From NCBI GenBank assembly GCA_026026165.1, contig JAPEUD010000019.1, positions 1 to 64,000 on the forward strand: 64,000 nucleotides of DNA, in the 5' to 3' direction. The DNA comes from Sarea resinae. Its lineage: Eukaryota. Shown here in pieces: positions 13,438-45,942 of the stretch. Made by a program: the position numbers and the translations under genes. How positions within the stretch are numbered: the stretch's first letter is position 1; every line of letters starts with the position of its first letter. The notes under the pieces are model-generated. The model was not told the DNA's origin. It saw only the letters and a list, made by a program, of their open reading frames with translations, and did no database searches.

Positions 13438-15269
13438 TCATTCTCGTTCGCGCTCGATATAGAACCACAGCCGTCGAGCGGCCTCGTCCGACATCTCCGC
13501 CGAGTACTTCTCCAGATAGACATCAAACAGCTGCCGAAGCGTCACCTGGACGGCCTCGAAATCGAGCTGCGGCGACACCCAGCCCTCGTCGTCCGAGCCC
13601 AGCAGCTCCTGCGTACACGCCCGCAGCTTGTGCCAGTCCCGATACCGACCCACCTCGTCCTCATGCCTCTGTCGATCTTCCAATGAGATCTCGAATGGAC
13701 ACGTTCCGGGCAGGCCCATCGACTGCCACTTGTCCGCGACGCCGACCAGGCAAGCACGCAGCGGCACGATGCCGTCCTTGTGAGTGGTTTCGCCTCGGGT
13801 GAACAGGTCGCGCAGGCACGGCTCGGGCTGCGTCATCGCTAGGAAGGCCTGCCGGTGGTTTCGCGCCAGCGCTGCTTCGTAGCATTTCGTCTTCCGGGCT
13901 TGATCTCTCATCGAGACGAAAAGTTCTTGTTCGTCCGGGTACATGGCATGGAAGTTCCGAGGGACGTCGGGTACGAACGGTCCGGTCTGGTAGCCCTCGG
14001 GAGGGTTGAGGAAGATGGGCCATCGTGCTTGAACGAACAGTGGAAGGATAGAGGTGAACTGCCAGTCAATCAGGCCGACGATCACTCGAGGGTCCTCTTC
14101 AGAGACAAAGATATTGCCCATATGCAAGTCCGTGTGCCAAAGGGTGGGCTTGCAGTAGCGATCCAAAAGGGAGCATGATTCGAGAGCGCGAATGACCTTC
14201 CTAGCAGCTTCCAAGATCTGTCTATGGTCCTCGGACGAGCCAAAATGTGGTCCGACTGCCACATCAGATCGGGTTTGATCTGTATGCCAGGTCCCTCGTT
14301 GGCAAAGTCCGATGCCCAGTTCTGAAAGGCCAGTCCCTACGATTCGGCATGTCAGAACCATGTTACTGTAAAGGGACATTGACATACATGGGCCAGCACT
14401 TAGATCTACCCAGCTGAGATGCTCACCCGAGCCACCCGGCCACGAATCGTTGTATACAGGACCAATACAGTACAGGGCTTCCGGATCTACATAAGAATCC
14501 AGATCAATGGCCTTCTCGGGCTTGCCCTGACGGAAATACAGATTTCCATAAGCTGGGAATTTTATTGATGTTAATTGGCTTTCTAGTCGACTGAGACTTT
14601 GTATGAGTTCGAACTGGTCAAGCTCATTCATTTCGCCCCAGGCTTCAGAGAGCTGCTTGCCAGGGACCATTTCTAGAATGATATATTCTACACCAATAGG
14701 ATTATTTGCATCAGAACTCCATGCCAGTACTCCAGGCACCGGAATGGCAGTGTGCGTTTTCACTAAGAGGTCGGATCAGCATAGTGTTTCTCAATAAGCG
14801 CTTGCAGACTATTACCAAATGTTAAAACAGCCACTTCCGATGCGGTGCAGAATTTCGATGGTCCTGCATTGGGAAAGGGGATCTTGGCAACAGCCCGTGT
14901 CCCATTCTCCATGGTCAATATTAGAGCTTTGTTGAAGCCGCCTTCCACCTTGTCTATCTTGGAAACGGGCGATGAGACGGCTGGTATTGATGCAACCATC
15001 TTGCAAAGCTGGTCCACATCAAACTCGACATAGCGCTTAGCTGTTTCATGCTTCTCATTGACGAGAAATCGGCCATTGGTGTATCGGAAGAGGCCATCTT
15101 GAGTTATCGGTTTCCCTGTAATAATAAGAAGTCCGTGACGGCACGCTCGAAACAGCTTGGGTGTCAACATACCACGACAAGTCAATGATATGCTCCTCGA
15201 AATTGAAACCGAGACAGTTTTATTTTTTCTTTGGAAGAGAGTAGTACTGGCGGTGCGGAGCCGAAACAT
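13438..15269 (-). CDS. APH-type phosphotransferase, AIM9-like (4 exons, possible mitochondrial presequence)
   Basis: LFRYTNGRFL, EGGFNKALIL, AKIPFPNAGP..TASEVA, PVPGVLAWSSD.NPIGVEYIILE, catalytic-loop PTLWHTDLHMGNIFV, IDWQ. N-terminus is Arg/Ser-rich. Confidence 0.88.
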
Positions 15270-18200
15270 AGTCGAGGTTCAGCGCGGCTGGTCGACACGA
15301 TTTGTTCAGAGCAAGTATTCGGAGAATCCTGTTCATGCTTCTCATTATAACCCGAAGTCTTCATGTCACTAATTATCCCACAGAAGCAAAGTTGATGGAC
15401 ATGAAAGCATCCCGAAAATGTCAAATGAGTCAAAGAACAAAACCATCATGATATTGAGGCTCCGAGATGGCGATGCAGTCTTGTTCATAAACACAAGTGG
15501 AGTGATGGCACTGCTGCGAATCAGATCTTTGTCAGCCCCGGAATGTCTGTCATAGGCGCCTTTCAACGAAGTCCTCTGTGCGTGCGGGCCAGCGGAGAAA
15601 TGGTATATCGAGCGATAATGGATGCCACGAACGTCGGTTCTATAGCCACCTAGTAGACCAGACTCGAGCGGTCATGAGTCAAGGGGCTGTTCCCTTGGTA
15701 AGCGGTAAAGTTGCGGCAGGCGTCGCCGATGCCTGGATGAAGCCCATTAACACTGCTCAGTCCTACTCCCGACGTTGTCACCAGAGTACTAGCAAGATGT
15801 CGTAGATTGGTAGCAGATGGTTCAAGCTTGGTGAAAAGCTACTAGATGAATACCACAGCCCAAACCAGACTTGCGCTCATACATACATACCTTATGCACG
15901 AAGTTCAACCATGCAAGGTAATCTCTTCAGAACTATGGAAAATACAATCGTTCTACACTGATGTCGGCAAATGAAGCATTATCGCATATCGAAATGGATC
16001 ACCGTGCACATACCGAAGAGGGTCGCAAGGCAAAGTGGGTAGGAAGGTAGCTCACCCCTCCAAATCCCTAATAGCAGACAAGACGGGATAGGGAGGTATC
16101 TACTTCGCAGTCTCGACTAGGCTCAGTACTCGGGCTTCGTACTTGGAGTCCGAATGCAGACCATCTCACTTCCCCAGTATCTCAAGGAACGGAGATAGTC
16201 CTACTAATGCAAGCCGAACGGCTCGATCCGCTGATGACCGCCACTTCGGAATTGCAATGCCACACATCCTTGTGCGAATAAAAAATCACACAAATGCACA
16301 CAACTCCATGACCTCCGCCGAAAAAGGCCATGAATGGGCACGAGAACGTCAAAACCCATCACGGTCTGCCACGCGCTCTGCAAGCGTCTAGGGATGAATA
16401 GAGAATGCGACATCAAGATGATCATAATGTGCATGTACTGAAGTAAAAGGATCCATGACACTTCACATCTCTGTCTCAGGCTCCATTCCGGTTGGACAAG
16501 ATGTCCTGCACCGACTGTGTGATCATCTGTCAGGGTGGAGCCGCCCGGAATGCAACGAATTCACGACATCTAGCGTGCTTGCGCTCGTATCTTTCTGTCG
16601 TGGAGCGCAGAGTACTTCGTACATTCGCGCGCGGCCAACAATCTGAACCGCCCACCAGTTGCCATTACATATTGAAAACACCAACGCCTAATCGTTAAGG
16701 TTTCGCTATCGAATGACTGCAATATAACCAAGCCGAGTGAGAGCGTCGAATCCTGGCCCCTCGGCCGCGACTAAGGGCTTTCGGAAAGTTACTTTCTGAC
16801 ATAGCCGATCAGATCTGGCATATGAGAGCCGCTGCCTGCGCTCGGAGACTTCCACGAGCGGATAGAACGGAAGACGGCAACTGGCCACGCTTGTATAATT
16901 TGATTTGGCGACCTCCTCCATCACCAAGGTCCGACTGTTTGAGGAAGCTGTGGAACCATTCTTGCCACAAGGCCATTCCATCCCTCGCGTTTGAGGTTCA
17001 TGTTCGGTTGCCCGTCTTCCACCATCCGCGCGCGACCGCAATGTTGAACCAGAGTCCGTAGTGTCGACCGATGGACGTCGAGCAGAACGGGCGGTTGCTT
17101 TAAGCTTACCTTTGCATCGTGGATCCTACTTTATTGGATGTTCCCGTTCCCAAAGCAGCAAACAGTAACTTTTTCGAGGCTAGATATATAAAAGGAAGTG
17201 CCTGCGTTCCTGAGTGCTCAAAGGGGCCTAACATGGCGATCTGGTCTACTACGTACTTCGCGAGGGTCGAGGGTTCAAGATGGCCCGCCGTAGCCTTCCA
17301 ATAGAGCAGCCCTAAGGGCCAAGATTGATCTCCGGGCATTGTCGCCGTGCCCTTCTGCGGCGGCTAGGCGGTGATGCAATTTTCTAGGGGGCTGACTGAA
17401 TCATCCCTGACGGATTACCCCTTCAGTAAGGTAAAATGCACGAAGGTCACACGCTCACAATCCATCGCCAAAGCCGTCGATAAGCCGCGATCAGATCCTC
17501 AGGGAGGAAATCTAACGGTGACCAAGGCCGTAGCGCCCGTATCCCACTGCAGGAACCCAAGGCGCTTGCGGATCTTCTTCATCCATGAATTGCTTGCTTG
17601 CAGGATGACTTCTCTTCAAATATGATGATCAATTTTTTGCTGTCGGTCTGACTCACGAACTAGTCGTAGGAACGACTACCCAGGTAGAGTAGACGTCTAA
17701 TCTTAGAGTATGCTCATTTGGCAATTGGTAGAACTTCGAGCGAGATTGGTCCAGGGTTCGAGGGGGAGAATGCGACAGCCGTGGAGGGCGACATCAGTAC
17801 CTTGTGGCACACCGCACATCGCTAGCGCTGAAACAGCGGATACGTCGCGAGCGCTCGTATCCAAAGCGGGCGTTGAGTAATGATAGCCGCTCAACCAGAT
17901 GATGAGTAGTCTTCTAGGACGCCCATAATCATTCGGTCTCTTGCAGATGACAGACGCCGATCTATCCTTGTTAGAGACAATTAGTCCGACTGGATCTTAT
18001 TTGCAGCACCCTCGTCTATAACAGAAGACGGCATATGATGAGGCTCATATAAGTCTGCAATATGTACTAATAATCGCCCGATTATCGTCCATTCAGGCAT
18101 CAAGTCTCGTTGCAACTTGCTAGTAGATGGCCTCTCAAATCCACTCGACTTCTGATCAGATAGGACGAGCGGGCCCAGCGGGGAACGATTCCGCTGCCCG

Positions 18201-21200
18201 TGAGCGGGGTAGCTTCGTTTGTGCCTCGTCCTCGTACTGTGTATGAATCTTCTCGTCGACGAGCATTTGCTGTGCCTCGAAGGATCAAATCAAATCCACT
18301 GCCCATCTCTTATTTGCCTAATAAACGTGTGCACTGGCCGCCAGCGGCAGGGTGGCTCCGAGGATCCGCCCATTCCGCGCGGCGAGACGTCTGCTTCCCG
18401 AGCGTGCATGCAGCATGTTTCGCAAGCCCTCGACAACGACCAATGGCGGTGACCGTCGATCATCATTCATCGGCCGTCGCTCGCATTTGCCGATGACGCC
18501 AATGATGGTCCCTTCCAGGTTCTCCCGCCCAGTCCTCCCTCTCTTCCCTGCCTCCTACTCCTGCTGTACTCTAGAGTATCCTCCTCATACCAAGCCCACC
18601 TCCCTCCCCCCACCCTCGAAGGTCGTTGCCGCCCTCGCAGGACATCTGCAAGTTTTTATGTACGAATACGCACGAGGTAAGAAGTGAAAAGCCTGTATAC
18701 GGCGCATCACGATTTCGCTCTCGCTTTCGCCCCTTGCTATCACATCACAGCCATCCTGACCTCTCGCTCTCGCTCTCAGGGAGCGTCCGAGAGAGAGACG
18801 CGGGGATACTGAGTAAAGTTCTCGTAACGGGCGAGGGTTGAATCTAAGTACGGTACTATGTACACTATCGTGCATCCTAAGCAGGTAAGATATCTGCTAC
18901 CTAACTTGGAATCTGGCACGCCGCGACTCTCGATAGGATGATTAGACGATACCCTGGGTAGAGCAAGTCCACTACGACCGATGGGAGTACAAGACCCCTC
19001 CACTTATGGTGGGAATCAACCTTGAATAGCCTGGACAGCATCGCTTAATCAATTGGCCTAGATCTTTAGGTACCCGCAACGGAGCGCCATAGAGCTCTCC
19101 CTCGTCTCTCTTCTCTCCATCACGGGCAGAAACAACCGCCGTCTTCTAATTTGCAGATCGCACGTGGGACAGGGCCAATGGATGGGCGGAGCGGGGCATA
19201 TCATCCCACATACGAAACGGTACTACTCCTCTACATTACACAGTAGGTTTCTTCAGGTAAAGTCGATAGTCGCGGCCAGTGCTGAGTAAAGTACTTACCT
19301 TAGGTACCAGCACTACCTACCTGGTAGCCAGAGCGGATAATGCTTAAGTGTGAAGATTAGCAGAGAACAGAGGGAGCTTCAAAACAAGCCAGGTCTAAAG
19401 GGGCGAGTGGGAAAGCCAGGTCGGGGACCAGCTACTCATAGTAGAACCAGCCAGGGGGGCCTTGGACCGAAGCCACTCCCACTCTGCATTCTATGAAGTA
19501 CCTCATGCCCTGGACCGACCGCGGTACGGTATTGTGTATCACGAAGTACGCGTACTGGAGTCCGCAGTCTTACTTGACGAGTAGGGGTAGCGCAGTACTC
19601 CGAGTACCCGAGTAGTACCTGCTAGTGGGCAGTCGGTACTTGATGTACGTAAATCCCGTCGCCACTGCCTCCCTACGTCCAAGCTAAAGGCCAGGTACCC
19701 CCGCGGGTCTAAGTGGTCCTGAGATGCTTGTCAATTGTCCCAAGGGGCCTCAGGAATTCTAACCTCGCGCCTCGAGCGGACAAAGACCTCTGAGCTTGGC
19801 GAGCTGAGCGAGGTCAGCGAAACGGGCGCATACTGCCGGAATTGCCCTAGGCGCCAATGCCGCCGCCGTTGCCGTCGCTCTCAAGCCCATGGCACGTTTC
19901 GGCATGTCCGTCGTCACCACTTACTGCTCTGGGATCCTTTTACGTGGACGTACGCCGGAGTAGATCATCATCGACCTATTCGCACTCTCTGCCCGCTTGT
20001 CTGCCCATACTCTAGGACGGGAGCCTTGGCCCCATGGGAGGTGACTCTTCATGTGCTTGGATGTTGAGAAGCCATCCAGGGAGAGAGAGAGAGAGAGCCC
20101 TGGCACTCTTTCCTGGTCCCATGGCATGTGCCGCTCCCAGCCCTGGCAAGCTAACACTTTCACGTCAGATAGACTCGCGCCAATCGCTCCCGTGGTCATT
20201 TTCCGGTCGATGCAACTGGGTTGGACTGGATTTCAGACGGGGTGACGAGAGGGCAGAAAGGGAAAGGATATCTTCTTCACACGCGGTCAAACAGGTCAAG
20301 CCGGCCGAGGACCTACTATGGTACCTAGTAGTCTAGACCCCCCCGTCGATGAATCACGTTGTATGTACACTGGGAGGTAGTGGTGTAGTAGCGGTCGTAG
20401 CTTTAGCCGTGCGGGCGACAAGATGGGAATAGTAAGGCAAGGTAGGCAGAGTAAGGTATGGATAGCCCAAAGTTAGTCGTCGAGTGGGCAAGAGAAGCAA
20501 GCGGCTACCACTACGCATTATTGCTCTTGTAAGATACGACTATTCTTGCCCCAGTCGGACCCGTACCATACATCTTCCCGCCGCCCAGTCCTACTTCTAG
20601 AGTAGTTGCGCCTGTCTATTACCGCTCTCCTGGGTTCCGCGCTCTCATATACCTCATTGCCCTTACTGTCGGTATCGCCCTCGCCCAGACGCTTCTCACC
20701 AGACCCCTCCACGTCTTCATCCTGCTTCGACCACAGACGCCATCGCTTTTGCCGCGATATCGGATTGGAGGAGAAAGGTCCATCGTAGGTACGCGCGCGA
20801 GAGAGGGCGAGAGAGGGCGTGTGTGTATACTGGTGTGGGTGTGCGTGTGTGCCTAGGGACTCACTCGGCAGATACGTTTCTCTCACCTTACATACCGCAA
20901 GCAGGCCAACAGCGCGCGTGCATCTGCCGATCAGCGCTCTCATCCAGTGCCGCATCCCGCGAGTGTGCTGCCGGCGATCGAACGCCATCGGTCAAGGCAA
21001 ATTGTGCGTGTGGCTATATTGTTCAATGAGAGAGCTCCCTGTGATGTATATTCGGGGCTCCCTCTAGCCAAGCAACTCTGTCCCACGGCTACATCACCTA
21101 TCATCCGAGAAGGCAGAAACAGCTTCTCGACGAGCGTATTACACGCAGTATTCACCATCATCGTACAAGCGCTTGCCTGTTGGGATATCCGCCTGAAACG

Positions 21201-21798
21201 AGTACCGGTCCTCCAAATTCATTCGCGGTGTCTTGGCTGACGCTTGCCAATTACGAAGGATTAGGCGCCTAATTTGAGCCTTGAATGCAACCGCAGCGAC
21301 ACAGCCCACCATCTCTTCGACAGCGACCACATAACCTTACGCGTGTCGCAGAACGTTGCACGGCGTGGCGCTAGCTCTCGGATTGGACGAAGCATACGGC
21401 CACCGAAACGTGGAAGCATAGAAGAACGGCCTCTTATTGCCCTGCTTTGGCGCCTCGACTTCAGACCATAAGCGCACTCATCGTCACTACAAGAACAGTG
21501 GCCTTCCACCTGGCCGGCGATCTCGTCATCTTCGAGCAGCTCAAGTAATCAAAAAGTACGTTCCGTTCCGTCATCGGTCGAAGTTACACGACAACAATAA
21601 GCACACGGCTGGGTTCCGTGTCTCTTGCCTTGCGATCGCGGCACGTTGAAGCTGTCGCATCCCCACATTTCGCCACTCACCTTTGGGTCTTTCCTTCTCA
21701 AAGCTAGGCTCCCGTTGTGGGGTGTCTGTTGCTGTTCCGTTGTAGTTGTGACTTTGGCTCATCATCTCGATTTCTTGAGGAGATAGAAGTTGAAAACA

Positions 21799-24089
21799 AT
21801 GACTTCAATGTTTCCACATCAGCCGCAGAAAGCACCGGGGTCTGTCGAAGAGGAGCGTGCTGACGAGCCCGCACCGTCTCGATTTACGGCGGTCAATGGC
21901 CAAGAATCTTCGACGGCCGCCAGCGAGGTTAACGTCACTCGGACCGAGACTGATAATCAGAACAATGGCTCGCGACGTCCCAGTGTATCAAGCAACAAGT
22001 CTGCAGAACGAACAAACACATCTACTCGGCGGGAAGACTGGGCTCGTCCTGCACCTAGTGGGCCTGAACCGCAACCCATCCATGCATCCACTACTCAACC
22101 GCAGAACGATCATTCCACCAATTCGCCGAATGCCAGCGCCCACAAGCGAAAACGGTCGATTTCCGACGAACGGCAGTCTTCAAGTACTGCTTCGTACCTG
22201 AACCACGGCCTTCCAAAAAGTCCGACAAGAGAACACCAGGATTTCACTGACTCTGGCGTGGGAACAGAGGCCGCTGATAGCGATGGCCACGACAAACGTT
22301 ACCAAGGAGCCACGAGCCCCAATCAAGACTCTCAGCGTCGCTTTCCACAATATCCCCAAATCGAGAACGATAGACGGGAAAGTAATCAGCCCAGTGGGCA
22401 TTGGTACAGTCAAGAAGTGCAAGCGTCGAATCAGCCTTACAGCGCGCAGCGAGCTGATAGTCCGGCAAACTCTGACGCACAACTGGCCGAGGCCCTTCAA
22501 CGGGAGTCTCAAAATATGGGATCGAGCCGAGGAGATTATAGCACGAGAAGCCCAGAAGGCGAAGATATACAGGGAACACCGCAGCGGACCAGTGAGTACG
22601 GCACAGATCGCGCGCCGCAGTCGGGTGTTCAAGTAGATCATAAGCGGAGGAAGAGAGTCTTTAGCAACAGGACCAAGACTGGATGTATGACCTGCCGCAG
22701 GCGGAAGAAGAAATGCGACGAGGAGAAACCTGAGTGTGGGTCTAGTTCTACCCCGTTTAGACGTTTGAAGGGGTCCGAGAAGCTAATTTCAACGTTCAGG
22801 TAACAACTGTATGCGTGGTGGATTCGTTTGTGAAGGCTATCACCAGAAGAATACCTGGCAAAAACCGTCGACCCTTAAAGCCCCTGTGCCGTTGCAATCG
22901 AAGGAAGGATACCACGCGACCAGTTCCCAAGCGAACACAAACCATCCATTCAGGCGTGAACTCACTCCTCCGGTCTACACAAATGGTCTGCCACATCCGC
23001 CGCCTCCTCTCCACACTTCTACCATAGAGGGCGCTAGGGTCAGGCCGATTGTTCTTGACGACGAACATGATCGGTCACAAAAAGCCGCGAGTCCGCACAA
23101 TCCGTCCATCTGGTCGAAACCCTCGTGGCCTAACCCAGGCAATCCGTCCTACTTATCAGAGCACCTCCCACAAACCGACTTCTCACGCGTTCCCCCACTC
23201 CATGAGTTAACGAGGTCGGATCAAAAGGACGCTTCAGCTACTCCATCATCTGCGACCGCAACTCATCGCTCACTCGTTCATCCTTCTAGCACCAGCAGTC
23301 CAAATACCCCTCAATCTATACAGGCGAAGGCACAACTTGCTATCCAGCATGCCGCACCTATTCGTCCGCCCCAGATTCGGCCTATGGAAAAGACACAGAA
23401 AGAGAAGATGCTTGCGGGTGAATTATATCTCCCGTTCAGTTCTACATTGGTCGAAGAGCGCGAGCGATGCAAAGCTGCTTGCTGGCGCTTCAACAATTCT
23501 ACGAATCCAACACTTGGTGTCAGCCGTGAAGAGCGGGGCCGCCTTTTTCGCGAGATTCTGCAACCGCCAGATGGTACACCTTACAACAGCACTGGCACAC
23601 CGTCTCCCATCGGGAGCGTTGGTGACCGTGTCGTCGTTGATGCACCTTTCACATGTGATTATGGATACAACATCACAATTGGCGACGATGTTGTTATAGG
23701 GGCAAATTGCACGATTCTTGATACATGTAGTATCAGCATAGGGGCGAGATGTATTTTCGGACCTAATGTCCAAGTATACGGTGCCACCCTACCAATCGAC
23801 CCCCGAAGGAGGAACGGCAGTCAAGGGCCGGCGATTGGTGGAAGTATAGCTATTGAGGAGGACTGCTGGATCGGTGGTGGAGTCATTATTCTTCCTGGTA
23901 TCAGGATCGGAAAGAGCTCGACCGTTGGAGCTGGTTCTGTTGTGACAAGAGTGAGTCTTCAATCACCCTCTAATCATGTCGAAGCTAGAAGTTGACTCGC
24001 TTTGTTAACAGAACGTACCGCGCTTCACCGTGGTTGCTGGCAACCCGGCGCGTGTTCATCGTGGCATCTACCAAAATGAACAATTTTAA
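21799..24089 (+). CDS. Zn(II)2Cys6 transcription factor fused to a C-terminal maltose/galactoside O-acetyltransferase-like (Mac + hexapeptide left-handed beta-helix) domain; introns 22736-22799 and ~23951-24011
   Basis: RTKTGCMTCRRRKKKCDEEKPEC/NNCMRGGFVCEGY spans the intron. EKMLAGELY, PFTCDYGYNITIG, DCWIGGGVIILPG, VGAGSVVTR/NVPRFTVVAGNPAR. Confidence 0.92.
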
Positions 24090-26125
24090 GCATGTTGGTG
24101 AAGGCATCATCTCGGCTTATGGCGCCGATTAAATGTTACTCTCGTTTGCTTTGTTCTTGTTACATGTCATCCGTGGTGGTCTATATCATGCTGAGTCTCA
24201 TGGTACGTCTGATTGTCTACGAAAAAGGGGTCATGGCTGGTATTGGAGTATTGCGAAGCATAGTTTTACGAGTTGCTGTTTCTGATGTGGTATTTACGCC
24301 TTCCGGATGTATGACATTTCTCTGCGATATACCTTGCATCGCGTCGGCTTTGGGGAACTGAGGAGGGATCTGTGAGGGGTAAGTGAGCAGGGGCGGGGCT
24401 TTGCTTTGAATTTTTTCCCTCTGTTCGGCTGTATGACTTCTCTATTCGATTCCAAATGGGGTGGCTTGACAGGATATCTTAAGCCTGCCGCCACCTGCTA
24501 TCAGCTCCTGCATGCTTTACTAGGTGTCTTGTCTTCACGAACTCTAACCTTTATGACTGCGGCTATATCCCCATTAAGACTAACATCGGGCACATTATCC
24601 TTACATATGCATACATTCATGCTTAAGGTGTTGCTGATAGTACAATTCTTAACAGGCACTCGCTAGATGCATGAGGCCATATTCCACCTGCACTCAGACT
24701 GTAGCACCAGACCAAGATCATGCATTCTCTCTTGGCACTGTGATTGGCCTTGTACATCAAAAGGAACTCATCTAGCCTTCAGTCGTAACCGTACCTTAGT
24801 AGGTTCCGTCTTCGGTTGTCGGCTGTCCCTTGGCCGTCGTTCTACAGCTTCCCATATCAGAAAGCCAGGACGGGCAGCTTTGACTTCTGGCCCGATCAAA
24901 CACGTGGACGCCATTGGGGACCTTGGGATGCATGATCCTCGCTTTGAGCCACAGCAGGCCGTCGACATGATCGACGGCTTCATTCAGGTAGAGTGACATA
25001 TGTATGACAAGAGACTGGATTGTGCCAAGTCGCCTAGATGGTAGATTCTGCTCCGTCCTCGGCATGGGAGTGTTGATGCCCTGATGCCCGCCACCTTCAG
25101 CAGACATGGAATGGCATGAGGAAGCATGTCCGAAAGTGGGTTTTGGCGGATCCTTGACTCCGATCCGATGATCCTGACGGAGCCAGGGGCCATGCGGTCT
25201 ATCTGGGACACTTACTACTATAGTACGTAGGCGAGCGGGGTCTACTTTGTATTGCGGCACTGCGGTACTTTACTGCGGTAATCCTACGTTATAGAGTATG
25301 GAGTACCCATAGCATCCATTGTGATCCCCTACGGTCCCTCCAGTGATTGCCGATCGCGTCCGGCTATTCGAGCTCTCTATATAGGATTAGCCGTGGACAG
25401 TGTTGATGTCGGCGCTTTGGAACGACCGATTGTCCGACTAGGACGAAGTCACTGGCTCTAGCACTCTACAGGTAAGTGTGTCCTGCGGATGAAGTGCGAC
25501 GTATCCTCGCAACTCTACCTCAAACAAGCAGAGCCAAGCTGAATACCTCATTCAGTCCTAGCCTATGCTCCAGGCAAAGGCCAATGCAGAGGCGATCGTG
25601 CCAGTTGACGGTGATGGTGCTGGTCGTGCTGCTGAGTGAGATAGGTACGATGAGGGGCTTCTCATCAGGAATGTTTACTATCTCGGGAGTCAATCAATAG
25701 TCAAGACCACCCTGGCCTCGAGATGTCATGGATGATGGATACTCGTGCAATCCTCGCACAACTACATCTTTCCAATGCGAGGGCCCTGGGTGGCTCTTCC
25801 TTCTCCCTAGCGACGTCGAATGTTTGCATCGCTTGCATCGCGTCCGACCCTCTGTGACACCCTGGAAGCTCGTTCCCCGCTTGAAAGTTGAAGGGTGCCA
25901 ATAGATTGATATTATGCTCATCTTCGATGATGCTGTACCCATTGAGGGGTCTGTCAAGCTTACAGATGATCGACGGTTGCGCTTTGAACATGCTTTTTGC
26001 TAGCACGACATGGGCTAAGGTCAGCGTTTGAACTGCATTCATCGTGCAACTTGGCATATAAGTGCTGCTCTTTGGCTTTCTTTTGAGGATGTTTTCATTA
26101 TCATTGCCAACTTCGCATCTGCAAC

Positions 26126-29100
26126 ATGCCTGAGGAAACACCCTATGGAAAGAGGCTCTTGCTTACCCGCTTTGACGAACTCGCACTTGAGCGTCCTGAT
26201 CATTCGTGGGCATGGGTGCCTCGAACAGCAGATCTCAGAGATGGCTTCAGGGCTGTTTCCTATAGCCTTCTATGCAACGCTATCAATCGTCTCGCATGGT
26301 GGCTCGAATTATCCCTAGGCAAAGGGCAGAACTTCGAAACGCTGGCTTACATTGGGCCCGCCCTCGATGTTCGATATGTCATACTGTCACTTGCCGGCGT
26401 AAAGGCTGGTTACAAGGTCATTCAATCTCTACCATGTCAGATATCTATTTTGTGCTGATTCCACAAAGCTTTTATTAATCTCTCCTCGCAACAGCGTCGA
26501 GGGCAATCTTTCTCTCTTCGAGAACACTGACTGCAATGTTTTGATTCATCCTTCGAACTTGCATTTCAGACATCTCCTTGAACATCGGCAGATGCGAGAA
26601 TTGATCATCCCCGAGGTGGCGGACATTCTCGACGAAAGCAAAGTGCCACATCATCCGTACGAGAAAACTTACGAGGATGCTAAGACTGAGCCTGTTGTAG
26701 TCCTACATACATCAGGCTCCACCGGTCTGCCCAAACCCATCGTGATCAAGAATGCAATATATGGCTCCTATGACGCGATCAATCTACTAGGGCTCGTCGA
26801 TGGAAAGGAACTGTACATAAAGGACTGGTTTGGCCATCGTATCTTTAGCGTGTTTCCGCTCTTCCACGTAAGTCGTGTTTCTGAATCTGCATCGTACGCT
26901 TCACGGCATCTTCCCTCAGCATCTCTTCTTACATTGCTCGGGCAATGATAGCTCATCAACCTTCATTAGTCGGCAGGTTTCCTCACGGCAACGGCAGCGG
27001 CTGCTTATATGGAAGTCACTATGGTGTTGGCCCCTGTTGGCAAGCCACCAGACGTAGACACTTGCGTTCAAGCATTTGAGCAAGTCGAGCTTCATGGGGC
27101 GTTTCTTCCCCCCGCGATCGTGGAAAGCATGGCAAAATCTCCTTCCTCGCTGAAAAGGCTGCATAAGTTGAAGTTCCTAGTCTTTGGCGGTGGGCCCCTA
27201 TCTCAAGAAGCTGCGCAAATGATCAACACCGAGACGCTCTTATACAGCACCATGGGGGCTACTGAGACCTTCTACCTACCCAACGTCAGGACCGATCCGG
27301 AAGACTATCAGTACTTTCACTTCGCCCCCAGTACTGGAGTCGCATTCCGGCAGCATACCGAGGACCTGCACGAATTGTTCATTGTACGATACGAGAAGGA
27401 ACCATTCTTCCAAGGAATCTTCTGGACGTTTCCTGACCTCCAGGAATATTCGATGAAGGATCTCTATTCGAAACACCCTACCAAGCCAGATTTGTGGATG
27501 TATCGTGGCAGATCTGACGACGTTATAGTCCTGTCGAATGGTGAGAAGGTCCAGCCTGTGGATATCGAAGGCATAATGGGGACCCATCCGGACGTGCTCT
27601 CTGCTCTTGTCGTTGGCCAAGGAAAATTCCAGCCAGCATTGTTGGTTGAATTGCGAGAAGCCTCTCCGTTGTGGGAGAAAAGCCAGGAAGAGAAAATCAA
27701 CGCGATGTGGTCCAAGGTCGAAGCATCAACGCACGATGCTCCCAGCCACGCGAAAATTTCCAAGCAATTCATCTGGTTCACCCCCGCCGCAAAGCCTATG
27801 CTGCGGGCCTCCAAAGGCACAGTTCAGCGCCAGGCGACAACAAAACTTTTCAAGGGCGAGATCGAGGCTTTGTATGAGGCGGCCGAATCTGGGATCAACG
27901 ATGCCGATGTGAAACTTGATGCGCACGATGAACCATCATTGAAGGCCTCCTTGCGTACCATCATTTCGAACGTAACGTCTTTCGAAGTTATCGAAGAAGA
28001 AGCTGATCTCTTTACGCTTGGGATGGATTCTTTGCATGTGCTTGCCATTCGTCGCGCTCTGAAGAAGGGTCTGCAGGGGCAGCTTGAAGAGAGTTCTACA
28101 AGGCTGGTCTATCAAAACCCAAGCGTGGAGAAGTTGACGAACGCAATTTGGGCTCTACTTCACCCTGAACAGGCCGCTAAGCATGATCAGGATGTTCAGG
28201 ATGAACGACGGACGCAGACAATGAAGGCAATTCTTGAGAAATACTCCGCACATCTTCCAATACCGCATCCCACACCAGCACCAAGCCCGACTGGATTGCT
28301 GACGGTCATCCTCACGGGCTCAACCGGCTCTCTAGGCTCTTATCTATTAGACACGCTGCTCAACGACAGCAGAGTAGACAAGATCTATTGCCTCAACCGA
28401 TCCGCAGATGCTCGGGAAAAGCAAATTCAAGTCAGCTCGAGCCGCGGCCTCCCAACAAAATGGGACGCAGCCAGAGTTTCCTTTTTACATACCAACTTTG
28501 CCAAACCGCAAATGGGCCTTGGCCAAGACGACTACCAGCATCTTCTAGGAACTGTCACTCACATCATCCACAATGCCTGGCAAGTCGACTTCAATATGCC
28601 CGTCGGGTCCTTTGAAAGCGTGCACATCGCCGGCGTGCGGCGCCTTATCGACTTCTCCGCCGTATCGCGGCACCGATCCCGCATCTTCTTCGTCTCGAGC
28701 GTCTCGACCGTCATGAACTGGTTTGCCCTGCACCCGGGCGTCGACGTGCCCGAGGAAATCATCCACGACTTTGCCGTCCCGGAAGCCATGGGCTACGGCG
28801 AATCCAAACACCTGGCGGAGCGGCTCCTCGACCAGGCCGGCGCCGTCTCCAACGTCCATTCCGTCATCTGTCGCGTCGGGCAGGTGGCCGGGCCCGTCTT
28901 GCGCAAGCAGGGAAAATGGAGCCCGCAGGAGTGGCTGCCGTCCATTCTCGCGAGCTCGAAATTCCTCAATGCCGTACCGGACGCTCTGCCTGCCGGCTTG
29001 GGCGCCGTCGATTGGATCCCGGTGGATCTCCTTGCGACTATCATCGTTGAGCTCATGCTCCCTGACGACTCTTCCTCCTCCTCGGCGCTTTCTTCTCCCG

Positions 29101-29492
29101 TGTCCACGACAACGATGACGGCTCCGACGCAAGTCACGCACGCCGTGAACCCACAGCTGACGTCCTGGACGGCCTTGCTCCCAACAGTAACGAAGTACCT
29201 CTCAGCGTCCTCGCACACCAAACCCATCGCCACCGTCTCCTTTGGCCAATGGCTCGACAAACTGCGTGCCTCGGCCCCGACGACGACGGACGACGTGGCC
29301 GTGCGCCAGAACCCGGGCGTCAAGCTGCTGGACTTCTACACGGCGGCCTACGCCGGCGCGGATGCGGACGCGGAACACAGGACCGCCAGATTGTCCACGG
29401 CCGGGTCCGTGGTCAGGAGTCCGACGTTGGGTGGCTTGCAGGCCGTCAATGAGGCGTGGATGGAGCGGTGGCTGGAGCAGTGGGCTTTCTAG
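26126..29492 (+). CDS. NRPS-like adenylation-thiolation-reductase (A-T-R) carboxylic acid reductase; introns ~26417-26468 and ~26868-26968
   Basis: A-domain motifs LHTSGSTGLPKP, GATET, YRGRSDDVIVLSNGEK, KGTVQR. T-domain LFTLGMDSL. R-domain LTGSTGSLG, HNAW, GYGESKHLAE. Confidence 0.93.
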
Positions 29493-31038: not shown

Positions 31039-32780
31039 TCACTCGACCCAAATCATCCAGCCCCCAATCGCCAACAACAGCACGACAACCACGACAGTCA
31101 ACGCGGCCGCACCAACCCGATCGCCCGTCGTAACCACGACCACCTTCTCGGGGCTCCCCTGCACCAGGCCGCCGCCGCCTGTGCCAGCACTCGGATCCGA
31201 CTTGCTGGTCCCGCCCGACTTCAGGCCGACGGGGCCGGGCACGCTTCCGATGAGATTGCTCTGGACGACGGCGAGCGCGGACATCTGCTCGCCGACGCCG
31301 TACAGGCCGTCCCAGTTGGCCTGGGTCCAGTGCATGCCGCACGTGACGCCGTCGGTGCCGCCGGAGCACTGTTTGGCGGCCGCGTTGGCCGAGGTCGAGA
31401 GGAGCGGCATGATCTGGCTCGAGGTCGAGGGCACGAGCTGCGAGGTGGCCGCCAGCGATTGCGCGAGGCAGGCTTTGAACGATCGTTGGTCCGTGTCGCA
31501 TACTGTCGTCGGCTCACACGTCGCTTCGTACATGACGTTGGGCACTTGTGGGGAGAAGAAGATGGAGGTGGCGTTCAGGATTCCGTGGACGGCCGAGAGC
31601 CATTTCGGGTCATTGTTGGTCTGGAGAAGACCTTCAGTTTAAAAGGTGGATGAATGGGGAAAACAGTGGCAGTTTGATGGATGGATGGATAGATGGAGAG
31701 AGAAAGAGTGAAAGGCAAGAGAGGGGGCGGGCAAAGACGAGACAGTAAAGCAAGATGAGTTTCTGAAAAGAGAAAAAAACTCACGTAATTCGCCATATGC
31801 GCCGCGCCCAGCAACCAGACGGCGGCATTATAACTCCACTCCCTATGATCGACAGCCGTACAATTATTCTCCATGTTGGTGCCGTCGTAGAAATGATACG
31901 TCGGGCTCATGAGGGCGGACGCATGCATCCAATCGTAGACCTTGTCGGCCCAGTCCGCGTACGTCTGGTTCTGCGTGTACCGGGCCAGCCGCGCCGAGAT
32001 CTGGAAGAGGCCCCCGTTCGAGATGCTGTTTTTGTAGTTGTACCCGGAGTTGAATTGGAAGATCTGCCATCGTAGACCGCCACCGCAGTTGGTCGTGTCC
32101 CACCGAGCCGCTTGCACGTTGAAGACTGCTTGGGCCAGCGCGAGCCATTGCGGGGACGAGGACGGCGGGTCGGGGAATTTGGTCTCGGCTGCTGTCATTA
32201 CGGCGAAGGCCCAGAAGATTTGGTCGTCGTTGCCCTAGAGGGGATAGTGAGCGAGGAGGCTTATAAGGTACGGCAGACTCTGATTTGGGAGGCGGGAAGA
32301 GGAGCAGGACATGTCCTTTGGAATATAATAGGTTTCCTTTCTGTAGTGGCTGGCTTACCTCGACTTTGGTCTGATTAGGAGGCATATAGTCATTGTCTGG
32401 CCCCGTCTGGAATAACAATCCCTGCGTGACAATATCGTTGTATTCGGTGTGGCCGGTGTAGAACCAGTAATTAATCAGTTGGCCGAACATGGCTCCGGCT
32501 TCATACCAGTAGTACGGGTTGGGCAGCATGCCTGGGATCTGGCCGGTTTCGTTGCCGTGGTAATATTTCACCATGCCGTAAGCCAAGGTCTGCGCCGCCG
32601 ATTTGATCGAGTCTGTCAGTGGGAAGGGAAATCAGTCGTTGATTGTTGATCGGGTGCCTCGTCGGGTTACTCACCGGAACTCGTCAGGTCGAGATTGATG
32701 GCCTCGACGGTGCTGGTGCCCAGGAGCAGTATGCACAAAGCCGAGACAAGAGTCCGCCATCCATCGTGAACTACTCTCAT
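31039..32780 (-). CDS. GH76 alpha-1,6-mannanase/transglycosylase, DCW1/DFG5 family, GPI-anchored (4 exons)
   Basis: Signal peptide, [11 protein letters not shown], catalytic [64 protein letters not shown] hydrophobic tail. Confidence 0.95.
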
Positions 32781-34273
32781 CCTAAGAGCCGCGGGGGAGA
32801 AGAAGTTGTAGAGTAAAGGATTGAGGGGCCGTGGTGCTCAAATGAAGGTACAGTCCTGGATGAATGCGGAAATGAAACGATTGAATGGGTCGAAGCCAGC
32901 GGAGCCGTCGACGATGCGCAACTTGAAGTCGTCAGTTGGATCTGCGCAGTCTGATTCCTAGATGGCAAGGCCGCCAGCACAGGAAGGAAATCCAGCTCCT
33001 TGTGCGCAAGCACACTCGAATCGAAAAACCTCACTTCGAAAGGCCGAGATGTTGGACAAGAATAAAGAGGTTATGTGTAAGTTCCCTGGATAAGAAAATA
33101 ATGCACGGATAACGATTGTGTAGGCTTTCCCTCAACTCTATCAACGAGCGACAGTAGTAGTAGTAGTAGTATGTAGTATCACCAAACGAGCGAGATGTAT
33201 GTATTAAGGTTGTATGTACGGACGTTTCATTAGGACAGTACGTGATGAGACCCGAGCGATGATAACAATGAAGGGCATGATCCTCGTCAGATCTGCAATG
33301 CCTGCCTCTTCAACACGGATACGAGACGAGCGAGCGAAGCAGTAGTGGAATCGAAATAAGCGTTGCAGCGAGAAAAGGAACAAGGGGAAATTAACGCGAA
33401 GGACAGATGAGATAAGAAAGGTTCTCATCTCAGCTTTGGTGCTGCATGAATAGCTCATCGATGCGGAGTCTAACGGAGACTCGATTTGTAAAAGGCACGG
33501 TGGAAACGGGAGAGAATCGAGTAAGTCCCGCCGCAGATCGCTTTTCAGGGGAAAGCAATGTTCGGAAAAGAGAGAAATACCGAAGGACCCTGAATACGCA
33601 TGCGAAAGCGGTTAGACGAGAGCAGTCGGCTCTGGCTGACTGACGCCATGTTCAGCCGTGTCAGAAGAGAGCTGGAACCAAAAGGATATCCATAATCCGA
33701 CGTTGGCGATGAAGAGATAGACCAATTCGATGATTGATGCTGGCAAGAAAAGTACTCGAGATCGCATACGTAGACGTTATATGTCAATCCATGCAAGTTT
33801 TACGAAAGAACATCAAGCACGCCCACCATGATGGCACTCGCGTCAAGCTCCCCCTCGACGCCAAGTCTATCTTCACTTCGTCCCAATAACCTACATAGTA
33901 ATGCTCCACCTCATTTTCTACCACGTGATCGGATCGGTTCTCTCTACCGACACCACCGCTTCATGAATGATCCATGAACGTCATTGGCACATTGTAGCAC
34001 GGACCAGAAAAGGTATCTCGAGATTATAATTCAACTGTATGTTTTCAGAAAAGAAATATCATGACCGGCCGCCGTGGTTTATCCAACGACAGCATCCAGT
34101 AAACATGAGAGGGCCCAGCCGGCACTGTCATCGACCTTCGAATAATCTACATATTTAATCGAACACGCTCTAAAACGCCATCCACCATGCATGATGAGAG
34201 AGATAAAGGAGAATCTGTGACAAGATGATGTTCGTAGCACCCATATCCGATCTACCGCATTGCAAAACGAAGA

Positions 34274-37200
34274 TCACGGCTTGCTCAATTGCTCCTTCCG
34301 GAAGAATGTGAAGAAACCCACGCAGATGACTAGTTGAAATAGAAGTGAAATCCAGAACACTCCGGAATTGAGGCCCGAAGCGCCGAGAGCGAGATTTGGG
34401 AAAACGCTTCCCGGGCCCACCTTATCCGGTGCGGTGGCGCGGGCGAGAATGGTACCGACAGAACCGATGACTTGCGCTGCAATGAGGGTGAAGGTGATGT
34501 GGAAGCGAGTCATCGTCTGGAGCAGGATCATACCGAAACCTACACCCTGTAAGGAATCGAGGATTCCAAGCCACAGCCAGAGAGTCCGGCCGATTAGGGC
34601 ACTGGCAACGGCGCTACCAGTCCATGGAAGGTAGGCACCGACGCCAGAGGTTCCCCATAGCATCTGGCACCATCGAGGAGCACCGAGACCGATAGCGAAC
34701 ACTGGTAGGATCCAGGAATGCGACTTGGATAGAGTGCTGAGGATCCACAAAACGGCGGCCCATACCCCAATGAAGAAGAGGATGACGAGAAGGAAGATTT
34801 GCCATTGGCTGGCGTGCTTTGTCGTCCATAGGTAGCGCCAGTTACGACCGAAGGGGGCCGAGAGGAAGTAGTTCTGGATGAAAACCGTTATGAAGAACCA
34901 CTAAGCAGTCAGGTGGTCAGCATGGACACGATTACGGAAAATAGACGAATGAGACATACGATGATGATCTTTCGCCGGAACAGTGATCTGTAGAAGGAAG
35001 GTACCAGGCCTGGAGCTTGTCGGTAGTATTTGGGCAACCCCAAGTAAAGGAGGATGCCGACTGCCCAGCAGAAAAATGCCAGGGGTATTGTGACGGCGGC
35101 AATAACATCATGCGGAGCGACAACGCTTTGTACCAACCCGGATTCTGTTAGCTTCGTCAAGGCCGAACCCCAGAACCACAAAGCGGCCACGTAAAGCTGC
35201 TGGGTGCCCTGGATAAGGCAAGCTCGGAAAACCCATGAGGCAATAGGAGCACCACCTAAGCAAATTAGCTACATCTCTGGATATGACCGGGAGTGAAAGC
35301 TTACCTTCATCACCAAAATTCAGAGCAAAGAAAATGGACCCGCTGGAAGAAGCAATAGTATACAATCCGGTGGCAATATTTTGTACCCAACCTCGGCCTC
35401 CGTAACCTGATACGAAAGGAGACACACCGATGAATAAAAATGCGAAACCATAGAACAAAAATGGGATAGAGAGAACATATACAGCCTTCACCGCCCGGAA
35501 GAGGAACCACCACAAGATAGAGGTGACAGCATATATTGTAGCGATGATGTAGAGCTTGGTGGCTGTCTGACCAACTTCACCAGTGAGCAAGGTGATTTGG
35601 TATGATGTTGCCGCAATGATTTGACCCTGATACTAATTAGCCAATGTCCGCTGTGCGTTCAAGGATCAAGACTTACTATGGCGAGCAAGAAGGAATAGAC
35701 AGGCCAGTCTCCAATTTTCTGAAGCAGAAGTCTCTTGACACCACTTGGTGGTGTGTAGTCGATACCCAGTTGAAACGGTTCCCCTTCGGAATCGGTCATA
35801 GTATACGTGTCACTTCCATCGCCACGAGATGAATCATTGAAGATTGATCCTACTGGGGTTGAAGGCCTTGTTGAGCGGAACAGTGAAGCCGAAGAAGAGC
35901 TTGCACCTGGCAGTTTGCCCAGTTTCGCGTCGCGATACTGATTGAACCACTTCTTCTCACTCTTGATCAAATGCTCTTCAATGCAGAGATTGTCATCCGT
36001 ACCTCCCTTCTCTCCCATCTGGTCGAGCTTCCTCTCAAATTCGCGAATGTACATGCCCTTAGAATCCGTAAAGAAGGGGTCGACTTTCTGTAAGGCAAAG
36101 TCTGTCCTTTCGCCGACAACGGAATCAAGACTTAGAACCGAGACGGTGCGAGGTAAACCCGCACCTGGCAATGGCGGTCGCAACTGAGGTTGTAGAAGGC
36201 CAGTGTCGGCTTGAGGCGTACTCGGTGAAGAATTGACAGGCGATAGTCCTGGAGAAGGAAGGCCGAGAGACGGAGGAGTGCCTGGAGCGACGGCAGGCGT
36301 GGGAGAAAGGAATTGTCGATCTGGGGGAGGAGACACCAATGTGACTTGGGTGGCGTTCGGGCTTGAAGGCTCAGTGTGTCCACCGACTATGTTCACCAGC
36401 CTCTGCAAAGAAGGTGATTTCGGAATCAACCGCAATTTTGCGTTCTCTTCCTTCGACATCTTGATAGCAGTCGACTGCAAGATGTTGAGGTCTTCCACCC
36501 ATTGGGCGACCGGAAAACGTTGTTTTGCGGATCGGGCTCTCATCATCGCTCGAGTCTCTTGAGAAGAGCCTAACGCGTCGTGGATGGCCATCTTGAATTG
36601 GTGGAGAAGATGTTTCGGCGTCGGAGACTCGATTGTGAACCACCAGCCAGGCATTTGGCCCAGGCCTCCTACCCGGGAGCCGACACCCAATGCTCCTTTC
36701 CGGCCAAATTCAACAGCGACCAGACCGAAGGGCTCATCTCTGGAAGGAATCAGGGCGAACTCCGCACCACTGAATATGTAAGGAGGCAGAGATGTGAATT
36801 CGGGTCTTGAAAATACCCTGCCCGGATATAGCTGCATCAGTTTATCCAACTTCAGAGCCGCAAACCGACCATAAAGATCAATGACCGGGCCAACAGTGAT
36901 GAGTTGGGCCCTCGGATATGACTTCAGAATGTTTGGAAACACGTCGGCGATAAGATCTATGCCTTTTTGCATCGACCAACGGCCGACAAAAACAAACAGA
37001 TCAGCTTGAGGGTCTTCATTGAGGCCTGCCCAAGCCTGCGCCTGCTTCTTGAGCTCCGGTCTTGCTGCCTCAAAGGAAGCGTCTACCATGACATCATCCG
37101 CGACTGACATTTCTTTGCTCCACTCCGCCGTATCCGTCGGGTCAGGATTCGGTAAGCTTCCAATCTTATGCAGACCCCAGAAAATGGGGTATCGTGCGAA

Positions 37201-44600: not shown

Positions 44601-45942
44601 CCGGCGCCGGTCCCCCTGATCCAATCATAGTAACACTTACCTAAGGTAGGTAGACTCCATCCGTTCCGCTCTCCCGCTAGAGGGCGCTGCTCTCCAGAGC
44701 TACCACGACCCCTAGGTACCTTACATTGTACTGAAGTACATTACGACGAACGAAGTCGACAGGACCTGCAGATCTGATTTGACGCCAAACGGCGACTCAA
44801 TTGCCTCTCACCCGTCGGAGCTACCTAAATTAACCTACATACCAAGGTACCTGGGTGCGAGTTGCTAATGATGCCCCGGGACCTGACTAGCCCCTTTACT
44901 CGCTCCCAGGTTCCAATGGAGATTGAGAGTCTCGAATGGCCTCGCGCCCTGGCGGAGAAATCGACTAGTCGTCCTGCCAAGACGATCCAGCGCCAATGTA
45001 CTCCAAGTACTCCCCTCTCTCGTAAATATTCCACGCCAATTCAGCCAATCCGAACCATCCAACCTGCCGGCCAACAATCCTTTCATTTGGTGCTCGGCGG
45101 AAAGATATGCTACCACGTACGGAGTGGTAGGTACGAGTACCGATTACGAGGGACCCTCCAAGCCAACTTCTAGTCTGAGGATCTAGTTCGACTTGTACGG
45201 GGGACTTTCGTATCAATCACAAATATCATTCTTTCAGACGCTCTATTCATGAATGTCCGAACCTGTCTTACCGTACTCTGTACTGCGCAGTACCAGGTCG
45301 TTATTTGTCTCCATTTTCCCTTGCCCGGATTTATGCAAGCTGCTCTACATAGAAATTTCCCTTTGCTGATTGACTTGCTGCTTACCTGATGGCGTGCATG
45401 TACACCGTTTTCCCGATCTGGACATTCTCCTGCCTGCCCTTGTCTGAAGGGGCTCTCTCCATGGGCGGCTCTCCAGGGCTACCAGGTACCAGGCTGTACA
45501 TATTCATCTGTCCATCTACTACCACCCACCTCTACGCAGTACGAAGCACATAGTACTATGAGCAGGGGCTTGGGTCTGGAAGTGATCCTGCGTGCTCCTC
45601 TGTCTCCCAAACGCTTACTGCTCTATTACTCTTCTTCGTGGTGGCTTGCCCTTCCCCCCCCCCCCCCCCAAAGTACTGACTACAGGCGCTAAACACTGCT
45701 CGTACACCCCATTCCCTCCTTTTCCTCGCAAGTTGTTTGGCGACGTGAAATGTCAAAGTGCATGTCCATGTAGATTTGGGTGCACGTTTGCATCCCCATC
45801 GCCCCATTCTCGATAGCCTCTCGAACCGTCACTCGTTTGATCTTTTTTATCGTGGGGCATTTGACCTCGACTCGGCGTGGTCAAGGGAAGAAGAGGACGA
45901 GTGAATGATCTCGAGTCAACAGAGAGGAAAACTCCATCGATC

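What the first reader, a model, noticed from the sequence alone, without database searches (positions are those of the whole stretch)
21799..24089. Zn2Cys6 transcription factor with a probably catalytically dead sugar-acetyltransferase domain: candidate acetyl-CoA/sugar-sensing regulator
Seen: one spliced reading frame joins a Zn2Cys6 DNA-binding domain to a full Maa/LacA/NodL-type domain. The segment after the beta-helix coil reads GPNVQVYGATLPID (CTA, Leu, at 23789-23791). Established: MAT/GAT enzymes have 'ATHP/TGHP' here, and that His (LacA His115) is the catalytic base. These domains trimerise and bind acetyl-CoA between subunits. The following conserved Trp (DCWIG) and the C-terminal CoA-binding GAGSVV/GNPAR motifs are retained. 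Inference: the domain may act as a ligand-binding or oligomerisation module, giving a metabolite-responsive regulator. A trimerising domain on a normally dimeric Zn cluster factor would be unusual. I recall this architecture in other fungal annotations but know of no functional characterisation.
Basis: partly seen in the sequence, partly recalled or inferred. Interest (0 to 1): 0.72.

Follow-up and report, generated by a model that had tools for sequence, protein, structure and literature searches.

The report
Fungal regulator with disabled enzyme domain
This gene is a copy of a known fungal development regulator (FF-7) whose attached sugar-acetylating domain has lost its catalytic residues in most filamentous fungi sampled but kept them in the two oldest lineages, so it probably works as a three-way clamp and not as the enzyme a paper proposed.

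Summary
Three exons give a 721-aa protein with a central Zn2Cys6 cluster and a C-terminal maltose-acetyltransferase (MAT) fold; Leu643 sits at LacA His115. The gene is not uncharacterised: it is the orthologue of Neurospora FF-7 and Botrytis Bcin04g03490, which have knockouts, ChIP-seq, RNA-seq and a partner (SUB1). What the papers I read do not say is that the active site is degenerate. His is absent in 120 of 120 named Leotiomyceta fusions; LacA Asn85 (119 of 120) and the Glu at the acceptor pocket (120 of 120) are gone too. 14 of 16 Orbiliomycete and Pezizomycete fusions, and both stand-alone MAT paralogues of this genome, keep His. On a rooted tree the loss is derived. A trimer is predicted (0.94 against 0.01, possibly from memory). 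CoA-site motifs are kept here but eroded in Neurospora and Aspergillus, so acetyl-CoA or sugar sensing is less likely than a structural trimerisation role. His-independent N-acetylation is not excluded. Known gene family, with a new and testable pseudoenzyme reading.

The parts
21799..22735 (+). Exon 1: disordered N-terminal region and first part of the Zn2Cys6 cluster
21883..21900 (+). Conserved FTAVNG motif (residues 29-34) in the disordered N-terminus; candidate short linear motif (inference)
   Evidence: F29, T30, A31, N33 in at least 90% of 60 orthologues
22144..22155 (+). Conserved KRKR (residues 116-119), probable nuclear localisation signal (inference)
   Evidence: at least 90% of 60 orthologues
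22684..22831 (+). Zn(II)2Cys6 cluster, Cys296-Cys323, interrupted by intron 1 inside the Cys313 codon
   Evidence: PF00172 E 8.5e-10 on the spliced protein; six Cys invariant in 60 orthologues
22736..22799 (+). Intron 1, 64 nt, GT...GCTAAT...CAG
22800..23950 (+). Exon 2: end of cluster, linker, most of the MAT-like domain
22862..23275 (+). Mac_assoc unstructured linker (residues 334-471)
   Evidence: PF16628 E 4.6e-17; pLDDT mostly below 50
23384..24071 (+). MAT/GAT-like left-handed beta-helix domain with helical cap (residues 508-716, spans intron 2)
   Evidence: phmmer to solved MATs E 1e-33; model pLDDT 89; Foldseek TM 0.81-0.84 to MATs
23660..23662 (+). Tyr600 = Botrytis Tyr633 (natural loss-of-function site) = LacA Tyr72
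23699..23701 (+). Gly613 in place of LacA Asn85 / Maa Asn83
23789..23791 (+). Leu643 in place of the catalytic LacA His115 / Maa His113; touches Trp669 of the neighbouring subunit in the trimer model
23831..23833 (+). Ala657 in place of Maa Glu125 / LacA Met127
23867..23869 (+). Trp669 = LacA Trp139, retained
23927..23944 (+). GAGSVV; Gly689 = Botrytis Gly722 (natural loss-of-function site) = LacA Gly159
23951..24011 (+). Intron 2, 61 nt, phase 0; same position as an intron in both stand-alone MAT paralogues of this genome
24012..24089 (+). Exon 3 with GNPAR (24039-24053) and the stop codon

Best explanation
The gene is the FF-7 orthologue, a Pezizomycotina transcription factor for development and light response. 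Step 1 (shown in Neurospora, inferred here): the Zn2Cys6 cluster binds single AAGCG-type sites and cooperates with the GATA factor SUB1/NsdD. Step 2 (shown from sequence): the C-terminal domain comes from a fungal MAT and has lost the catalytic His, Asn85 and the pocket Glu in Leotiomyceta. Step 3 (inferred): it no longer O-acetylates sugars and is kept as a folded homotrimer. The trimer holds three DNA-binding clusters on flexible tethers of about 180 residues, giving avidity and a surface for partners in place of the Gal4 coiled coil. Residual CoA binding in some lineages, this one included, is possible but not required.
For: Orthology: 40% over 578 aa to N. crassa FF-7 and 42% over 748 aa to BCIN_04g03490, same architecture. 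His column: H in 0 of 120 named Leotiomyceta fusions and 0 of 43 unassigned fusions; H in 14 of 16 Orbiliomycete/Pezizomycete fusions. Asn85 column N in 1 of 120; Glu column E in 0 of 120 against 16 of 16 basal. Both stand-alone paralogues of this genome keep N, H and E. In 38 His-less representatives at 50% clustering the His column holds 10 different residues and ranks 173 of 205 columns for conservation, so no fixed replacement catalyst; R533, C598, Y600, D620 rank in the top 15. LacA H115A loses about 90% of activity (PMC12775004). Two natural Botrytis missense alleles in this domain are nulls (PMC8079791), so the fold is needed there. Trimer model 0.94 against best control 0.01; runs agree in at least 96% of contacts, pLDDT at least 89; the mark was reached by 21 of 30 solved homo-pairs and 0 of 23 single chains (eukaryotes 17 of 29 and 0 of 30). 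No helix follows the cluster in the full-length model.
Against: No activity, binding or oligomer was measured. The trimer pass may be memory of solved MAT trimers, and the calibration held no small molecule. LbH N-acetylation can proceed without His (ApmA H135A, PMC7885111). LacA H115A keeps about 10% and N85A loses only a little over 20% in a whole-cell assay. This protein and most close relatives keep the CoA-face residues (A690 135 of 135, W669 118 of 135, N707 128 of 135), which may mean a ligand is still bound. The Botrytis null sites map to residues that lie near ligands in LacA, so they do not separate fold from ligand binding. 17 of 120 have His one position downstream, B. cinerea among them. 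The linker is low-confidence in the model, so a missing coiled coil is weak evidence.
Confidence: 0.6

Rival explanations
1. Catalytically dead acyl-CoA sensor: the trimer still binds (acetyl-)CoA between subunits and binding changes FF-7 activity.
For: W669, GAGSVV, T695/R696, GNPAR and R713 are kept here and in most of 135 close relatives. Botrytis G722R lies at the LacA Gly159/Ala160 turn. The inter-subunit Leu643-Trp669 pair is preserved in the model.
Against: N. crassa FF-7 has lost GNPAR; A. flavus has Trp to Tyr, GAGSVV to APGEVV and no GNPAR. In 40 diverse fusions the Trp column is W 22, F 11, L 3, Y 2, V 1, H 1. Many kept residues are also trimer contacts, which explains their conservation without a ligand. 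CoA was not scored.
Confidence: 0.2
2. Active His-independent N-acetyltransferase that acetylates a protein or small amine at target promoters (close to the proposal in PMC8079791).
For: ApmA H135A still N-acetylates; QdtC and AntD are said to lack a base (recalled, not checked). The CoA face is largely intact here. Domain missense alleles are nulls in Botrytis.
Against: The acceptor-side columns (641, 643, 644, 657) are among the most variable in the domain (ranks 167-177 of 205), which does not look like a site selected for one substrate. The CoA motif is eroded in Neurospora and Aspergillus. FF-7 is not needed for nucleosome eviction at WCC sites (PMC4378982).
Confidence: 0.12
3. Ordinary sugar O-acetyltransferase using another residue, for example the His one position downstream, as base.
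For: 17 of 120 fusions have His at +1.
Against: This protein has Pro there and no His between 501 and 711. 13 of those 17 are near-identical Colletotrichum sequences. N. crassa FF-7 has Cys-Tyr at these two positions.
Confidence: 0.05
4. Two separate genes or an annotation artefact.
For: No RNA was laid on the locus here.
Against: The Zn cluster itself spans intron 1, and exon 2 runs openly from the cluster into the MAT domain. The fusion is present in 136 named proteins with a full cluster. Tagged FF-7 works as a DNA-binding protein.
Confidence: 0.01

Closest known systems
Neurospora crassa FF-7 (NCU04001; PMC4378982)
   Same: Central Zn2Cys6, linker and C-terminal MAT-like domain; 40% identity over 578 aa; no His at the catalytic column (Cys).
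   Different: FF-7 has drifted further (GNPAR lost). Its DNA motif, SUB1 contact and regulon are shown; none is tested for this protein.
Botrytis cinerea Bcin04g03490 (PMC8079791); F. graminearum FGSG_10069 is named there as orthologue
   Same: Same architecture, 42% over 748 aa; Leu at the His column, Gly at the Asn85 column; null sites Y633 and G722 are conserved as Y600 and G689.
   Different: Botrytis has His at +1. The paper proposes active acetylation; the alignment argues against the canonical mechanism.
E. coli Maa and LacA (maltose and galactoside O-acetyltransferases)
   Same: Helical cap plus left-handed beta-helix (TM 0.78-0.84 to MAT/GAT chains); Trp139 and CoA-face motifs; predicted trimer.
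   Different: Stand-alone enzymes with His115/His113 and Asn85/Asn83; here these are Leu and Gly, and the domain is tethered to a DNA-binding cluster.
Orbiliomycete and Pezizomycete FF-7 orthologues (e.g. P0155 Orbilia brochopaga, P0269 Wilcoxina, P0289 Tuber)
   Same: Same Zn cluster type and same fusion.
   Different: They keep His and the pocket Glu; Orbiliomycetes also keep Asn85, Pezizomycetes mostly have Glu there. They may still be enzymes.
Gal4-type Zn2Cys6 factors
   Same: CX2CX6CX6CX2CX6C cluster.
   Different: Cluster is central; no coiled-coil helix after it in the model and no Fungal_trans middle region in Pfam.

Membership tests
FF-7 / Bcin04g03490 family | Central Zn2Cys6 cluster of the RTKTGC..CR.RKKKCDE type | tested here: met
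FF-7 / Bcin04g03490 family | Mac_assoc linker and C-terminal LbH MAT/GAT domain | tested here: met
FF-7 / Bcin04g03490 family | Similarity to named members across both domains, and placement of the domain in the fused clade | tested here: met
   E 4e-122 and 1e-158; fused clade 100/97 holds the window protein, FF-7 and Bcin04g03490. The two other MAT loci found in the genome have no Cys cluster in about 3 kb. No reciprocal best-hit search was run.
FF-7 / Bcin04g03490 family | Binds AAGCG-type sites, cooperates with SUB1/NsdD, controls development | not testable with these tools
   shown only for N. crassa and B. cinerea
Active MAT/GAT O-acetyltransferases | LbH fold with helical cap | tested here: met
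Active MAT/GAT O-acetyltransferases | Catalytic His (LacA His115) | tested here: not met
   Leu643
Active MAT/GAT O-acetyltransferases | Asn85 (intermediate stabilisation) | tested here: not met
   Gly613
Active MAT/GAT O-acetyltransferases | Trp139 and C-terminal CoA-face motifs | tested here: met
   W669, GAGSVV, GNPAR; eroded in some orthologues
Active MAT/GAT O-acetyltransferases | Homotrimer | tested here: inconclusive
   model 0.94 against best control 0.01, but like complexes are solved, so the pass may be from memory
Active MAT/GAT O-acetyltransferases | Acetyl transfer to a sugar | not testable with these tools
   needs an assay
Canonical Gal4-type factors | Coiled-coil dimerisation helix after the cluster | tested here: inconclusive
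   no helix from 320 to 485 in the model, but pLDDT is mostly below 50 there
Canonical Gal4-type factors | Middle homology region (Fungal_trans) | tested here: not met
   no such Pfam hit at E 0.001

The most novel reading that the evidence does not exclude
FF-7 began as a DNA-tethered, active sugar O-acetyltransferase, a state still alive in Orbiliomycetes. At the base of Leotiomyceta it became a trimeric pseudoenzyme that still binds acyl-CoA and so ties acetyl-CoA status to light-dependent and developmental transcription.
Probability: 0.18. Interest if true: 0.75.

Novelty: new member of a known kind. Interest (0 to 1): 0.43.

Why it matters
FF-7 orthologues are needed for fruiting in Neurospora and for sporulation, sclerotia and infection in Botrytis, and what the acetyltransferase-like domain does is an open question. 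The Botrytis paper proposes acetylation of chromatin substrates; the sequence says the canonical catalytic machinery is gone in the two characterised proteins aligned here. The basal classes that keep His supply a natural positive control, so the question becomes one assay with matched proteins. A trimeric Zn2Cys6 factor would also depart from the Gal4 dimer pattern.

Tried and rejected
RNA evidence: no RNA holder listed, so no reads were laid. Earlier scan findings: nothing by sequence or by words. Another His at the catalytic position: rejected for this protein. LacA Asp93 and Thr113 as diagnostic losses: rejected, since Maa differs there too (Val91, Ala111). P0382, a Sordariomycete protein with His, is a WD40-joined MAT without a Zn cluster that groups with the stand-alone enzymes, so it is not an exception. 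The first FastTree run over 266 rows rooted inside divergent fusions and was not used. AU tests did not reject trees that join the basal fusions (p 0.159) or the Orbiliomycete fusions alone (p 0.101) with the stand-alone MATs, so a single fusion followed by loss is the best tree, not a proven order. A paper on the role of Maa Glu125 was not found; that role is recalled. PMC9271549 gave no example of a His-less enzyme. AAGCG[CA] sites upstream of the gene (2 on the + strand and 4 on the - strand within 18000-21800; 65 in the window) were counted without a shuffle control and are not used.

Full report
Observation. The locus holds three exons (21799-22735, 22800-23950, 24012-24089, + strand) with GT-AG introns of 64 and 61 nt; the spliced frame is 721 aa and equals database protein P0001, which one search lists under Sarea resinae. 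Pfam finds Zn_clus 294-332, Mac_assoc 334-471, Mac 515-567 and hexapeptide repeats. Intron 1 splits the Zn cluster, and exon 2 runs without a stop from the cluster into the MAT domain, so two genes are very unlikely. No RNA was laid on the locus.

The active site. With LacA and Maa taken from the E. coli K-12 record, Leu643 (CTA, 23789-23791) aligns to LacA His115 and Maa His113. PMC12775004 (passages read) names His115 and Asn85 as catalytic, reports about 90% loss for H115A and a little over 20% for N85A, and names Met127 as an acceptor contact; the role of Maa Glu125 is recalled only. Trp669, GAGSVV and GNPAR are kept. The domain folds with pLDDT 89 and matches solved MATs at TM 0.81-0.84.

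It is a known gene. BLASTP gives 40% over 578 aa to N. crassa Female fertility-7 (P0440) and 42% over 748 aa to BCIN_04g03490 (P0425). PMC4378982 (abstract, passages, results section 12 and discussion read) reports 2756 ChIP-seq sites, a t/cAAGCGc/a motif (written AACCGC once in the text), a weak interaction with SUB1, 192 of 519 light-inducible genes reduced in the knockout, and no role in nucleosome eviction. PMC8079791 (abstract, passages, first half of the discussion) maps natural non-pathogenic Botrytis mutants to this gene, finds it only in Pezizomycotina, cites knockouts in N. crassa and F. graminearum (seen second-hand only) and speculates that it acetylates chromatin proteins. Its two null missense alleles in the domain, Y633D and G722R, map to Tyr600 and Gly689 here. 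The word 'catalytic' does not occur in that paper's main text. PMC12027217 (two passages) adds nothing on the domain. In searches (listings only, apart from the papers named) I found no paper on the missing His; the library lacks most subscription journals, and I read no supplements.

Is the loss conserved? Among the 120 best long hits (120 of 556 listed), none has His at the column (L 100, Y 11, M 8, V 1). Pooling and keeping named proteins with a full Zn2Cys6 pattern (class labels assigned by me from recalled taxonomy): His in 0 of 120 Leotiomyceta and 14 of 16 Orbiliomycetes plus Pezizomycetes; Asn85 column N in 1 of 120, against N 7, E 6, D 1, H 1, gap 1 in the 16; Glu column E in 0 of 120 against 16 of 16. 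Dropped before this count: 15 of 135 Leotiomyceta rows and 1 of 17 basal rows without the full cluster pattern (among them P0382, a His-bearing MAT joined to a WD40 protein), and P0268, which had no domain hit. 43 further fusions without a class label have no His; 7 of 9 unnamed Pezizomycete-like rows have it. The 120 are redundant and biased to close relatives, and Eurotiomycetes came in only through. Against the reading: 17 of 120 have His one place downstream, 13 of them near-identical Colletotrichum proteins, and B. cinerea has it too. The genome's two stand-alone MAT paralogues (G000 C125 and C1) keep Asn, His and Glu, have no Cys cluster in about 3 kb, and share the position of the last intron.

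Order of events. With the three diagnostic columns left out, a 40-row tree rooted on LacA and Maa puts all 32 fused domains in one clade (100/97) beside stand-alone fungal MATs, with the 24 His-less Leotiomyceta as a subclade (98/84); three changes explain the His pattern, the other two in Arthrobotrys musiformis and Ascobolus (a 54-row tree agrees). AU tests do not reject joining the basal fusions with the stand-alone enzymes (p 0.159 and 0.101). His loss is derived under either tree because the outgroup has His; a single fusion before the loss is the best tree but is not proven.

What is the domain kept for? In 38 His-less fusions from the 50%-identity library the His column holds 10 residues and ranks 173 of 205 for conservation; columns 641, 644 and 657 rank 167-177, while Arg533, Cys598, Tyr600, Cys616 and Asp620 are almost fixed. 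That is relaxed constraint on the acceptor side, not a new catalyst. The CoA side is mixed: well kept in 135 close relatives, but among 40 diverse fusions the Trp column is W 22, F 11 and others 7; N. crassa FF-7 has lost GNPAR and A. flavus has lost Trp, GAGSVV and GNPAR. Three copies of residues 505-721 with CoA fold as a trimer with score 0.94 against best control 0.01; runs agree in at least 96% of contacts, pLDDT at least 89; the mark was reached by 21 of 30 solved homo-pairs and 0 of 23 single chains (eukaryotes 17 of 29 and 0 of 30). MAT trimers are solved, so the pass may be memory, and CoA was not scored. In that model Leu643 touches Trp669 of the next subunit, the place expected of the catalytic His. 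The full-length model is disordered outside the cluster and the domain, with no helix after the cluster (low confidence there).

Mechanism. Most likely (0.6) the domain is a pseudoenzyme kept as a trimerisation and partner platform, placing three Zn clusters on long tethers; this fits a single non-palindromic motif and a factor that co-occupies SUB1 and WCC sites. Acyl-CoA sensing (0.2) remains open, above all in lineages such as this one with an intact CoA face. His-independent N-acetylation (0.12) has a precedent: ApmA H135A still N-acetylates apramycin (PMC7885111, passages). Ordinary O-acetylation (0.05) and two genes (0.01) are unlikely. Fusion, residue losses and their distribution are shown; inactivity, trimer and ligand binding are inferred.

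Verdict. A new member of a characterised family, not a new system. The added value is that the enzyme domain of FF-7 looks dead in the two characterised proteins aligned here (Neurospora, Botrytis) and intact in the basal classes, which makes an open question directly testable. Interest 0.43.

Noticed in passing
window 14776-21798: About 7 kb upstream of the gene without an open frame of 200 aa or more, with GA/CT repeats near 18760-18800, 20080-20100 and 20795-20850 and several short upstream ATG frames; a long regulatory region or 5' UTR would fit a developmental regulator.
   Followed up: partly
window 21883-21900 and about 22471-22512: FTAVNG motif (residues 29-34; FTAxN in at least 90% of 60 orthologues) and a short helix at residues 225-238 stand out in an otherwise disordered region; candidate cofactor-binding motifs.
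   Followed up: no
window about 26000-29492 (+): NRPS-like adenylation, carrier and reductase gene (AMP-binding, PP-binding, NAD_binding_4) just downstream; no sign of a functional link was sought.
   Followed up: no
window 31867-48000: GH76 gene (31867-32631, -), a large alpha-glucan-synthase-like glycosyltransferase frame (35662-40143, -) and an alpha-amylase (47030-47809, +) lie together, as in fungal alpha-1,3-glucan clusters (recalled).
   Followed up: no
G000:C125:72396-73145 and G000:C1:870040-870690 (L004-L007): Two stand-alone fungal MAT genes with an intact Asn/His/Glu site; they share the last intron position with the fused gene.
   Followed up: yes
P0435-P0437 and P0141 (Diaporthe sp. 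PMI_573): Four proteins of this family from one strain, on contigs of different length; a possible expansion of a usually single-copy gene.
   Followed up: no
P0285 (Arthrobotrys musiformis) and P0354 (Ascobolus immersus): Apparent independent losses of the catalytic His inside the basal classes (Arg and Tyr).
   Followed up: partly
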